Assembly (NCBI GenBank): GCA_948356915.1
Contig: CAOJCG010000004.1
Coordinates: 32,163-96,162 of the forward strand
Reading direction: 5' to 3'
Source: an uncultured Clostridiaceae bacterium
GTDB lineage: Bacteria; Bacillota; Clostridia; TANB77; CAG-508
Length of the DNA: 64,000 nt
Shown here piece by piece: positions 3,683 to 3,960 of this stretch (its first letter is position 1; each line of letters starts with the position of its first letter). A program made the position numbers and the translations under genes. The notes under the pieces are model-generated. The model was not told the origin of the DNA, made no database searches, and saw nothing but the letters and a program-made list of their open reading frames with translations.

Positions 3683-3960
3683 TTGTGTTAAAATGTCCGC
3701 TCCCAGGAGATTTAATTTATTTTTTCTTTAAATTGGTTTCCTAGCCTCCCACAAAGAGTAAGTACAAATATTGAGTTCCATTTCATTACACTCACTATTT
3801 TACTTACTCTAAGCGGTCCCCACCGCCTTAACGGAAAATGCAATTTAAAGAAAAAATAAATCAAACCTCCTTCACGCTACTCTATATGTTGGTATTACTA
3901 CTATTCAAAAATTAAAAAAATATATGAAAGGTATTTACATATATGATATAATAAAAGATA
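3683..3960. mobile_element. MITE-like element bounded by imperfect inverted repeats GGAGRTTTRATTTATTTTTT, copy 1
   Basis: Conserved ends (tgttaaaatgtccgctcccaggag... / ...agcggtccccaccgccttaacggaa...aaataaatcaaacctccttcacgctactctatatgtt) are shared with the copy at 39386-39655. The internal segment differs between copies but stays palindromic. Confidence 0.55.

What the first reader, a model, noticed from the sequence alone, without database searches (positions are those of the whole stretch)
3683..3960. A ~270-bp inverted-repeat-bounded element present twice (3683-3960 and 39386-39655), each nested beside a TGTAGGGG hairpin
Both copies share 60-80 bp at each end, with terminal inverted repeats GGAGRTTTRATTTATTTTTT and AAAAAATAAATCAAACCTCC. 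Their central ~60 bp differ but are internally palindromic in each copy (agagtaagta...tacttactct in one; ctctaagt...acttagag and aatattccgtta...taacggaatatt in the other). The pattern of conserved ends and a variable structured centre fits a non-autonomous transposable element (MITE), or alternatively a small structured RNA gene family. Copy 2 sits directly upstream of proS where a leader would be expected.
Basis: seen in the sequence. Interest (0 to 1): 0.5.

Follow-up and report, generated by a model that had tools for sequence, protein, structure and literature searches.

The report
Dispersed structured repeat in gut Clostridiaceae
The two look-alike ~220-bp stretches are real copies of an uncatalogued repeat found only in a small group of uncultured gut Clostridiaceae, and its folded shape has been preserved by selection, so it probably acts as a small structured RNA rather than as a classical jumping element or a proS leader.

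Summary

Nine more copies occur in related uncultured Clostridiaceae MAGs, giving 9 loci in all. There is no match in Rfam, plasmids, phages, viral contigs or JGI metagenomes.

All 11 copies fold alike: a ~29-bp A/U-rich closing helix, a short helix, then a junction. The junction carries an invariant GC hairpin, a long hairpin of two sequence types, and a conserved G-rich (C-rich on the other strand) segment. Nine base pairs show compensatory double changes, against 0 of 500 shuffles.

The 31-nt inverted repeat is internal, not terminal, and I saw no target-site duplication. This is not a textbook MITE.

Relatives lack the element at both window sites, or keep only remnants. Orthologous copies have swapped centres. 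The element is therefore gained, lost and recombined, and it is not a proS leader.

The functional strand is unresolved. Wobble pairs and base composition favour the window's minus strand. Co-orientation with neighbouring genes (8 of 9 loci) favours plus.

Best reading: a new structured-RNA-bearing interspersed repeat, closest in kind to Bacillus bcr1. Function and transcription are untested.

The parts
3684..3907 (-). Copy 1 of the repeat (whole conserved unit), between the mfd C-terminal ORF and a SpoU/TrmH methyltransferase gene
   Evidence: Covariance model R1 scores 241 bits, E 1e-55, on the minus strand. Alignments. Flanking genes.
3705..3735 (.). Copy 1, closing helix P1, left arm (AGGAGATTTAATTTATTTTTTCTTTAAATTG)
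   Evidence: 31-nt inverted repeat, 94% complementary. Paired in the minimum-energy fold of both strands.
3841..3871 (.). Copy 1, closing helix P1, right arm (CAATTTAAAGAAAAAATAAATCAAACCTCCT)
3742..3754 (.). Copy 1, conserved junction segment: TAGCCTCCCACAA on plus, UUGUGGGAGGCUA on minus
   Evidence: Unpaired or a mini-hairpin in the folds. GAGGCTAGGAA is conserved in all copies.
3755..3810 (.). Copy 1, long central hairpin P4, sequence type A
   Evidence: Inverted repeat. Compensatory flips between type A and type B at alignment columns 100-102/151-153.
3811..3828 (.). Copy 1, invariant GC hairpin P3 (AAGCGGT-CCCC-ACCGCCTT on plus; GGGG loop on minus)
   Evidence: Identical in all 11 copies.
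3876..3906 (.). Copy 1, conserved right flank outside the fold (GCTACTCTATATGTT-N5-TTACTACTATTC). On the minus strand it carries the -10-like box TTGAAT (TAGAAT in most other copies).
   Evidence: The same module survives alone in L021, L020 and L015.
39394..39604 (-). Copy 2 of the repeat, between scpB and proS
   Evidence: R1 scores 219 bits, E 3e-50. Flanking genes.
39416..39446 (.). Copy 2, P1 left arm
39537..39567 (.). Copy 2, P1 right arm
39465..39509 (.). Copy 2, central hairpin P4, type B, with a 9-10-nt apical deletion relative to other type B copies
39510..39527 (.). Copy 2, invariant GC hairpin P3
39573..39603 (.). Copy 2, conserved right flank (GCTACTCTATATGTTAAGAATACTACTATTT). On the minus strand TAAAAT with TTCAAA 16 nt upstream was picked up by the promoter scan.
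3619..3668 (+). Companion, not part of the fold: a GTAG-type REP-like GC-rich hairpin (TGTATGGGTCGCTGCCATCGGCGACCC) plus its CTCTTCGAAGAAATTGC tail. It travels with the element in copy 1, L001 and L008.
   Evidence: blastn extends the copy 1/L008 match to window 3618-3927. Sequence.
39310..39366 (+). Companion: REP-like hairpin family D7 (TGTAGGGGCTTAATCGGT...ACCGAATTACGCCC). It is also next to the element in L002, L005 and L009, and occurs alone at 11502 and 24583.

Best explanation
This is a new family of dispersed repeats, about 185 nt of folded core plus about 40 nt of conserved flank. It is confined to a clade of uncultured, 29%-GC gut Clostridiaceae.

Shown: each copy folds as a single strand into a ~29-bp A/U-rich closing helix, a 5-bp helix, and a junction. 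The junction bears an invariant 7-bp GC hairpin with a 4-nt loop, a ~21-bp hairpin that comes in two covarying sequence types, and a conserved GGGAGG/CCUCCC-type segment. Selection keeps this fold. Copies are gained, lost and truncated at given loci. Internal modules are exchanged between paralogues.

Inferred: the folded molecule is an RNA, making this a small non-coding RNA module carried on a non-autonomous repeat. Its sense strand is more likely the window's minus strand. On that reading it is transcribed antisense to the neighbouring operons from the conserved TAGAAT box at its edge. It would then display G-rich loops (GGGG, GGGAGG, AUGGAA) that could pair with C-rich RNA or bind a protein.

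Not established: transcription itself, the strand, and the target.
For: Repeat family. There are 11 copies at 9 loci in about 7 genomes, with nothing related in Rfam, plasmids, phages, viral contigs or JGI metagenomes.

Fold. Every copy gives the same architecture by minimum free energy on its own. For copy 1 the z-score is -8.7 on minus and -10.9 on plus against dinucleotide shuffles.

Covariation. 98.1% of cells are paired. 9 pairs and 29 cells show changes on both sides, against 10.1+-2.3 cells in shuffles (0 of 500 reach the observed value) and at most 6 cells when partners are slid. Examples: GGAGG/CCUCC to GGUGU/ACACC, UUUCC/GGAAA to AUUCC/GGAAU, and GAG/CUC to CUC/GAG at the base of P4.

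Minus-strand sense. In the core helices there are 10 polymorphic G.U cells plus one invariant G.U pair, against 3 A.C cells. One pair shows the G-C / G.U / A-U series 5:4:2. The element's plus strand has GC skew -0.30, against +0.12 to +0.25 for the surrounding leading strand, so the minus strand has the G-excess usual for structured RNA. A TAnAAT box is conserved at the minus-strand 5' edge in 6 of 11 copies and was picked up by the promoter scan for copy 2.

Dynamics. The element is absent from the scpB-proS spacer in L012-14 and L017-18, and from the mfd-trmH spacer in L019, L020, L022, L026-27 and L029-31. In L021 the core is exactly missing. Remnants survive in L015 and L020. The orthologous pair copy 2/L005 has flanks 90-96% identical but a centre only 44% identical.
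Against: There are no expression data. No canonical intrinsic terminator follows the fold on either strand. Promoter matches are weak and easy to find by chance in A/T-rich DNA.

The strand call is soft. The energy advantage of the minus strand (-74.5 against -58.4 kcal/mol) is matched by its shuffles (-39.5 against -22.3), so it reflects composition. The wobble asymmetry is about p=0.05, and its cells are not independent.

The folded sense would be antisense to both neighbours at 8 of 9 loci, which is odd for an independent RNA gene in a genome whose genes nearly all run with replication.

Compensatory change in inverted repeats can also arise in DNA elements. With 11 related sequences the shuffle control overstates significance.
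Confidence: 0.4

Rival explanations
1. The fold is the same, but the working strand is the window's plus strand. The element is transcribed as part of the flanking operons, in a 3' UTR or intercistronic position, or from the TGnTAAAAT box at its left edge. It then acts in the mRNA as a stabiliser or RNase III site, or is released as an sRNA. Its unpaired C-rich motifs (CUCCC, CCUCCC, CCCC loop) would pair with Shine-Dalgarno sequences, as the C-rich loops of RsaE/RoxS-type Firmicute sRNAs do (that comparison is from my own knowledge, not tested here).
For: The plus orientation runs with both neighbours at 8 of 9 loci, so this strand is almost certainly transcribed. In L004 and L007 a gene starts within about 5-60 nt downstream of the element. 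The plus strand also folds far better than its shuffles (z -10.9). An extended -10-like TGTTAAAAT with TTAAAA 17 nt upstream was found for copy 1. Three conserved C-rich unpaired motifs stand out in a 29%-GC genome.
Against: On this strand the polymorphic non-Watson-Crick cells are mostly A.C mismatches: 10, against 3 G.U. C greatly exceeds G (50 against 27), which is unusual for a structured RNA. The -10 box is degenerate in several copies. No terminator follows.
Confidence: 0.27
2. It is a DNA-level element: a non-autonomous mobile or hairpin-forming repeat whose fold matters as single-stranded or cruciform DNA. It would be moved in trans, for example together with the neighbouring GTAG-REP hairpins by an HUH/Y1 (RAYT or IS200-like) enzyme, or by an unidentified transposase recognising the inverted repeats. 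Any RNA would be incidental.
For: Presence/absence and truncation polymorphism. 7 of 11 copies adjoin a GTAG-type REP hairpin on the same side, and REP plus element are shared as 300-340-nt composites between non-orthologous loci. A Y1_Tnp gene lies 3.4 kb from the copy in L001. There is an orientation bias relative to the leading strand. The precise loss of the core in L021 between GTG...GYG looks like slippage across a DNA hairpin.
Against: The inverted repeats are not terminal. I saw no target-site duplication. Only 1-3 copies per MAG were found, with none in the related contigs fetched afterwards (roughly 230 kb). If IS200/IS605 elements use the lagging-strand template as I recall, that is the plus strand here, whereas the wobble pairs favour minus. 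The invariant junction and loop sequences and the multi-way junction go beyond what a transposase end needs. No transposase lies next to any copy.
Confidence: 0.2
3. It is the RNA partner of an enzyme encoded elsewhere. The topology (long end-pairing helix, short hairpin, long hairpin) resembles a retron msr-msd RNA, and it could equally be a guide or bridge-type RNA of a transposon-derived nuclease or recombinase.
For: Only the topology, plus the combination of a sequence-invariant hairpin with a variable long hairpin.
Against: No reverse transcriptase, TnpB/IscB or IS110-type gene lies next to any of the 11 copies; the neighbours are housekeeping genes. No large internal loops of the bridge-RNA kind are present. 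There are no Rfam hits to HEARO or similar families.
Confidence: 0.05
4. It is a cis-regulatory leader (T-box or riboswitch-like) of proS and of the methyltransferase gene.
For: Copy 2 lies 200 nt upstream of proS and copy 1 lies 250 nt upstream of the next gene.
Against: No T-box or other Rfam hit. Orthologous spacers in close relatives lack it. Copies precede unrelated genes such as tatD-like, deoB-like and mnmG. In copy 1 a terminator-like hairpin followed by a T run (4005-4045, read; the scan did not call it) separates it from the next gene.
Confidence: 0.02

Closest known systems
bcr1 and related bcr repeats of the Bacillus cereus group (Okstad 2004; Klevan 2007; Kristoffersen 2011, as summarised in PMC3184786)
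   Same: An interspersed intergenic repeat in a low-GC Firmicute. Its genomic distribution is not conserved between relatives. It has a stable multi-helix fold maintained by compensatory base changes at the RNA level. Size class is 150-300 nt.
   Different: bcr1 is flanked by 5-bp direct repeats and has tens to more than 100 copies. It folds as a cruciform of two independent stem-loops and is known to be transcribed. Here I saw no flanking direct repeats and few copies. The fold is one long closing helix with a multi-way junction and an invariant hairpin. Transcription is untested and there is no sequence similarity.
TIR-type bacterial MITEs (Correia/NEMIS, RUP, ERIC)
   Same: Long inverted repeats that make the unit a hairpin. 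Intergenic location, internal length or sequence variants, and presence/absence between strains.
   Different: In those elements the inverted repeats are the termini and are flanked by target-site duplications, with a cognate IS known for several. Here 21-40 conserved nucleotides lie outside the repeats, no duplication is seen, and no parent IS was found.
REP/REPIN elements and RAYT (Y1) transposases (PMC3733652, PMC8266576)
   Same: The element is usually next to GTAG-tagged GC-rich palindromes, and composites of REP plus element are shared between loci. A Y1_Tnp gene is present in one related contig. The location is between unidirectional ORFs, as reported for REPs.
   Different: REPs are 20-40-nt GC-rich palindromes with a GTAG or CGTC tag. 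This element is about 220 nt with A/U-rich arms, no tag and a branched fold. The wobble pairs in the one REP hairpin I read by eye fall on the plus strand, whereas this element's fall on the minus strand.
C-rich-loop sRNAs of Firmicutes (RsaE/RoxS type); comparison from my own knowledge
   Same: If read on the plus strand, it has conserved CCCC/CUCCC motifs in a hairpin loop and in unpaired segments.
   Different: There is no Rfam match, no terminator, a much larger closing helix, and the element is multi-copy and mobile-like. The strand itself is uncertain.

Membership tests
MITE (TIR-type non-autonomous transposon) | Inverted repeats form the termini of the unit | tested here: not met
   The 31-nt inverted repeat is internal. 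Conserved sequence continues about 21 nt to the left and about 35-40 nt to the right in non-orthologous copies.
MITE (TIR-type non-autonomous transposon) | Target-site duplication flanking each copy | tested here: not met
   I saw no shared direct repeat at the boundaries of the 11 copies when reading the alignment. Only a GTG...GYG microhomology brackets the core.
MITE (TIR-type non-autonomous transposon) | Presence/absence at orthologous sites | tested here: met
   Absent from scpB-proS in L012-14 and L017-18, and from mfd-trmH in L019, L020, L022, L026-27 and L029-31. Remnants in L015, L020 and L021.
MITE (TIR-type non-autonomous transposon) | Many copies per genome and a cognate transposase sharing the ends | tested here: inconclusive
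   2 copies in 64 kb. 1-3 per MAG by exact 20-mer. None in the related contigs fetched later. No transposase adjacent to any copy. Complete genomes were not available.
REP / REPIN (RAYT-mobilised) | 20-40-nt GC-rich palindrome carrying a GTAG or CGTC tag | tested here: not met
   The element has A/U-rich arms and no tag. Only its neighbours (3619-3648, 39310-39366) fit that description.
REP / REPIN (RAYT-mobilised) | Y1 (HUH) transposase in the genome | tested here: inconclusive
   Y1_Tnp (PF01797, E 1e-9) in L001 only. No homologue in the window or the loci fetched up to that point (L001-L022) by tblastn.
bcr1-like structured repeats | Fold kept by compensatory changes | tested here: met
bcr1-like structured repeats | 5-bp flanking direct repeats; transcribed | tested here: not met
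   I saw no direct repeats flanking the copies. Transcription cannot be tested with these tools.
Any Rfam 15 family (including T-box, 6S, HEARO, ribozymes) | Covariance-model score at or above the gathering threshold | tested here: not met
   0 hits in the whole window at gathering thresholds. Only sub-threshold miRNA/snoRNA-type chance hits at E up to 10.
IS200/IS605-derived PATE | Subterminal hairpins at both ends, with the active strand on the lagging-strand template | tested here: not met
   There is a single GC hairpin in the middle, and the ends pair with each other. Wobble pairs favour the strand complementary to the leading strand.
Retron msr-msd RNA | Reverse transcriptase gene immediately downstream | tested here: not met
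   The neighbours are mfd, trmH-like, scpB, proS, mnmE/G and similar genes. No RT Pfam family appears among the neighbouring genes that were annotated; the neighbours in L001-L010 were only partly annotated.
Independent small RNA gene | Own promoter and terminator; discrete transcript | not testable with these tools
   Only weak -10-like boxes on both strands. No intrinsic terminator called. No expression data.

The most novel reading that the evidence does not exclude
The element is a self-spreading small-RNA gene. A ~190-nt RNA is transcribed antisense to housekeeping operons from a promoter carried in the repeat. Its junction and loops display several G-rich / GGA-type motifs (GGGG, GGGAGG, AUGGAA, UAGGAA). 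It would act in trans as a decoy for a C-rich RNA, for the anti-Shine-Dalgarno end of 16S rRNA, or for a CsrA-like protein. Its two interchangeable central hairpin types and a competing 7-12-bp alternative pairing (P4 apex with the P2 strand) would give it a switch.
Probability: 0.1. Interest if true: 0.7.

Novelty: new member of a known kind. Interest (0 to 1): 0.4.

Why it matters
It adds an uncatalogued, well-supported structured element to a poorly studied clade of gut Clostridiaceae.

It also shows that repeats in these genomes nest with GTAG-REP hairpins and swap internal modules between copies.

If it is an expressed RNA, it would be a rare example of an sRNA gene that spreads like a mobile repeat. 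If it is only a DNA repeat, it is a useful marker of intergenic plasticity and a cause of assembly breaks.

Either way, the proS-leader idea can be dropped. The practical value is modest until expression is shown.

Tried and rejected
- **Rfam.** The whole window at gathering thresholds and both loci at E up to 10 gave nothing credible.
- **Sequence collections.** blastn against plasmids and phages found no match. Exact-pattern scans of viral contigs and two scans of JGI metagenomes (core 20-mer and right-end pattern) gave 0 hits. L003 from the genome scan is a chance 20-mer match inside a GC-rich gene.
- **More copies in the window.** A covariance-model search with filters off found only the two copies. 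A 26-bit hit at 43397-43505 is an unrelated long hairpin flanked by A and T runs, probably a terminator.
- **Coding potential.** The 50-aa minus-strand ORF 3712-3864 is not kept in frame in other copies, because indels fall in the T-run.
- **Strand from folding energy.** Rejected, because shuffled controls differ between strands by the same amount.
- **Short flank as a common target repeat.** Only 3 solo remnants occur in 318 kb, so the flank belongs to the element.
- **More orthologues.** Look-ups of the window's own ProRS and L27 gave only short contigs that break at the repeats.
- **Literature.** A string search for the invariant hairpin sequence found nothing relevant.

Full report
**1. 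Observation**

Reading both regions and aligning them shows two same-orientation copies of one element. Three conserved blocks each occur exactly twice in the 64-kb window at up to 3 mismatches, with none expected from shuffles:
- GTCCGCTCCCAGGAGRTTTAATTTATTTTT
- AGCGGTCCCCACCGCCTTAACGG
- AAATCAAACCTCCYTCRCGCTACTCTATATGTT

A covariance model built later places the copies at 3684-3907 and 39394-39604.

Identity between the two copies is 83-84% on the two sides and 47% in the centre. The inverted repeat is 31 nt at 94% complementarity in each copy, and each centre is its own hairpin.

- Similarity stops at about 3912/39612, not 3960/39655.
- The inverted repeats are internal. About 21 conserved nt lie to their left and 35-40 nt to their right.

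**2. Relatives**

A scan of one genome per species for a 20-mer from the invariant block gave 10 loci. Nine hold full copies; L003 is a chance match. All nine are in uncultured Clostridiaceae or Clostridia MAGs, with three copies in CAMXOP01 and two in CATLDI01.

Nothing related was found in any other collection searched:
- Rfam
- plasmids and phages
- viral contigs
- JGI metagenomes, two patterns
- the literature, by string search for the invariant hairpin

The model finds no further copies in the window, even with filters off, nor in the related contigs fetched later, roughly 230 kb. The one extra hit, at 43397-43505, is an unrelated long hairpin flanked by A and T runs.

The family is therefore narrow and low in copy number, as far as these data reach.

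**3. Anatomy**

All 11 copies fold on their own into the same shape (consensus). The parts are:
- a possible 3-bp outer helix
- P1, about 29 bp and almost all A-U
- P2, 5 bp (UUUCC/GGAAA)
- a junction bearing P3, P4 and a conserved segment

P3 is a 7-bp GC hairpin with a 4-nt loop, identical in every copy. P4 is a ~21-bp hairpin that exists as two sequence types, A and B. The conserved junction segment reads GGGAGGCUA on the minus strand and UAGCCUCCC on the plus strand.

Copy 1 folds far better than dinucleotide shuffles on either strand (z -8.7 and -10.9).

Covariation is clear:

| measure | observed | shuffled | slid partners |
|---|---|---|---|
| cells forming a standard pair | 98.1% | 93.1% | 40-55% |
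| cells changed on both sides | 29 | 10.1+-2.3 (0 of 500 reach 29) | at most 6 |
| covariation score | 0.172 | 0.086 | at most 0.039 |

Nine pairs carry double changes. Examples:
- GGAGG/CCUCC to GGUGU/ACACC
- UUUCC/GGAAA to AUUCC/GGAAU
- a three-pair flip at the base of P4 between types A and B

The sequences are related, so the shuffle control overstates significance, but the slid control agrees. I take the fold as real and selected.

The variable modules (P1 end, P2, junction, P4) occur in different combinations in different copies, so the copies are mosaics.

**4. Which strand folds?**

In favour of the window's minus strand:
- In the core helices the non-Watson-Crick cells are G.U on the minus strand far more often than A.C. 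There are 10 polymorphic cells plus one invariant pair, against 3.
- One P1 pair shows the classical G-C / G.U / A-U series at 5:4:2.
- The element's plus strand has GC skew -0.30, inside a leading strand of +0.12 to +0.25. The minus strand therefore has the G-excess typical of structured RNA.
- A TAnAAT box is conserved at the minus-strand 5' edge in 6 of 11 copies.

In favour of the plus strand:
- At 8 of 9 independent loci the plus orientation runs with both neighbouring genes.
- The unpaired conserved motifs are then C-rich (CUCCC, CCUCCC, CCCC loop), like the seed loops of several Firmicute sRNAs (my own knowledge, not tested here).
- A TGnTAAAAT box lies at the left edge of copy 1.

I first took the lower folding energy of the minus strand (mean -74.5 against -62.1 kcal/mol over 11 copies) as evidence. 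It is not. For copy 1, shuffles of the two strands differ by the same ~17 kcal/mol, so the gap reflects G+U content.

The strand is open, and I lean to minus at about 60:40. As a control against a genome-wide mutational artefact, the D1 repeat family in the same window folds slightly better on the plus strand in 4 of 5 copies. By eye, D1 and one REP-type hairpin also carry their wobble pairs on the plus strand.

**5. Dynamics**

*scpB-proS site.* The window and L005 (89-93% DNA identity in the flanking genes) carry the element. The relatives differ as follows:

| locus | ScpB identity to window | scpB-proS spacer | element |
|---|---|---|---|
| L012-14 | 88% | 68 nt | absent |
| L017-18 | 88% | 132 nt | absent |
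| L015 | 83% | 191 nt | only TTAAGAATACTACTATTCT..., directly after scpB |

L012 is from the same MAG as L009, which does have a copy elsewhere, between mnmE and mnmG.

*mfd-trmH site.* Several relatives lack the element here: L019, L020, L022, L026-27 (TrmH 98% identical) and L029-31. Several of these instead carry a small hydrophobic ORF cassette.

L021 has, inside a REP hairpin...TTAGAGATAAGTTATGTG|CTACTCTATATGTT...TACTACAATTC. That is both flanks with the ~183-nt folded core exactly missing. L020 15650-15713 keeps only the right arm end and flank.

*Orthologous pair.* Between copy 2 and L005 the flanks are 90-96% identical and the element ends nearly identical, but the P2-junction-P4 centre is 44% identical, because L005 carries type A. 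That is templated exchange between paralogues.

*Companion hairpins.* Seven of 11 copies have a GTAG-type REP-like hairpin 15-60 nt to their left. REP plus element are shared as 300-340-nt composites between non-orthologous loci. A Y1_Tnp gene lies 3.4 kb from the L001 copy.

I saw no target-site duplication. Only three solo flank remnants exist in 318 kb, so the flank belongs to the element rather than being a common target.

**6. What it is**

Shown: this is an uncatalogued, clade-restricted, low-copy interspersed repeat. Its branched single-strand fold is under selection, and it is gained, lost, truncated and recombined.

Inferred: the fold works as RNA. Three features go beyond what a transposase end would need:
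- the invariant hairpin
- the conserved junction
- the G.U pattern

Further inferred, with less support: the RNA is the minus strand, made from the repeat's own -10 box.

The rivals, in order of likelihood:
1. The same RNA fold on the plus strand, within the operon transcripts.
2. A purely DNA-level hairpin repeat moved together with REPs by a Y1 enzyme or an unknown transposase.
3. An RNA partner of an enzyme encoded elsewhere. This has no support beyond topology.
4. A proS leader. This is contradicted.

**7. Comparison with known kinds**

In kind it is closest to bcr1 of the Bacillus cereus group, an interspersed repeat with compensatory changes that keep an RNA fold (PMC3184786). It lacks bcr1's 5-bp direct repeats, its copy number and its cruciform shape.

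It fails the defining MITE tests of terminal repeats and target-site duplication. It also fails the REP definition of a short GC palindrome with a GTAG tag (PMC3733652), although it keeps company with such REPs.

I file it as a new member of the known kind 'structured interspersed intergenic repeats / repeat-borne small RNAs'.

**8. Verdict**

The feature is real. It is moderately interesting for the strength of the covariation, the mosaic exchange between copies and the strand puzzle. Its function is unproven. Interest 0.4.

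Noticed in passing
window 65-3085 and 3051-3584; also L019, L020, L021, L022, L026, L029-L031: mfd (transcription-repair coupling factor) is split into two overlapping ORFs: 1006 aa with the helicase domains and 177 aa with the TRCF domain. The same split (about 1006-1014 aa plus 171-177 aa) is called in every relative fetched where both ORFs are complete (L019-L022, L029), so it is conserved, not a sequencing error. It may be a frameshift or a genuine two-gene arrangement.
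   Followed up: partly
window 11502-11566, 24583-24647, 39315-39379; 12440-12545, 13406-13560, 17060-17180, 26417-26484: There are at least two families of GC-rich hairpins that begin TGTAGGGG/TGTATGGG, which looks like GTAG-tagged REPs, in a 29%-GC genome. Some carry nested inserts: 13406-13560 contains GCGAGTTAGAGATAAGATATGCG, the same motif that flanks the element in copy 2, L005 and L021. All copies found are in the same orientation, though only direct repeats were searched for.
   Followed up: partly
window 9507-9561, 12489-12543, 13505-13559, 17123-17177, 39722-39776, 52845-52899; partner runs at 12406-12452, 13372-13418, 17026-17072, 52744-52790: Heptad-like runs (TCCGACA/TCCAACT)n end 23-35 nt before the start codon in four of the six copies checked (9596, 13583, proS 39804, 52922). 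Partly complementary (AGAAGTC)n runs lie about 100 nt upstream, with a REP hairpin between them. This looks like a large composite hairpin in 5' untranslated regions.
   Followed up: no
window 12873-12952, 15430-15517, 17884-17971, 18593-18723, 25756-25844, 56172-56259: Another repeat family (CCCCGCGCGGGACATATCTTGTCAC...GGGAAAGATGTGTCCCCGTCAGGAAC) is scattered through what looks like the ribosomal-protein gene region (not annotated here). It forms a hairpin that is slightly more stable on the plus strand in 4 of 5 copies.
   Followed up: partly
L026 824-1215, L027, L029-L031 (mfd-trmH spacer); truncated version in L020: Where the window has copy 1, close relatives have a cassette instead. It has a promoter-like TTGATT...TATAAT, a structured leader, and a 36-codon very hydrophobic ORF (MDILFIILIHILLFEIIAIIPITIALIIAIKLFLSK), followed by the same terminator hairpin as at window 4005-4045. 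It resembles a type I toxin or small membrane peptide.
   Followed up: no
window 39476-39487 with 39528-39539; same in L009; weaker in L002, L006 and type A copies: A perfect 12-nt complementarity links the apex of the central hairpin to the P2 strand/junction (AATATTCCGTTA / TAACGGAATATT). It competes with helix P2. In type A copies the P4 loop AAUGGAA can pair with UUCCGUU. This may be an alternative conformation. It does not appear in the minimum-energy folds.
   Followed up: partly
window 1-64000: Not one Rfam family reaches its gathering score in 64 kb: no tRNA, riboswitch, r-protein leader or T-box, including upstream of proS. Nearly all long ORFs are on the plus strand, which has strong purine skew (GC skew +0.12 to +0.25, AT skew +0.21 to +0.32).
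   Followed up: no
window 49576-49679: Two tandem 52-nt units, 98% identical (AATAATCCGAAACACTTGTAAGACGAATGTGCTTACCGTTGGCGGACAACAT).
   Followed up: no
L001 1603-2379; L012 18110-20723, L013, L014, L029 3748-4743: Related contigs encode a Y1_Tnp (IS200/RAYT-like) protein and several PDDEXK_2 (Rpn/transposase-like nuclease) genes. These are candidate agents for the repeat dynamics. Neither was seen in the part of the window I checked: there was no tblastn hit for the Y1 protein, and only eight proteins (seven from the window, one from L001) were scanned against Pfam.
   Followed up: partly
L021 vs L022 (identical TrmH protein): Two assemblies share an identical methyltransferase protein but differ by a ~350-nt deletion. 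The deletion removes the whole repeat-filled mfd-trmH spacer and the mfd stop codon in L022. It is either strain-level instability or an assembly artefact.
   Followed up: no
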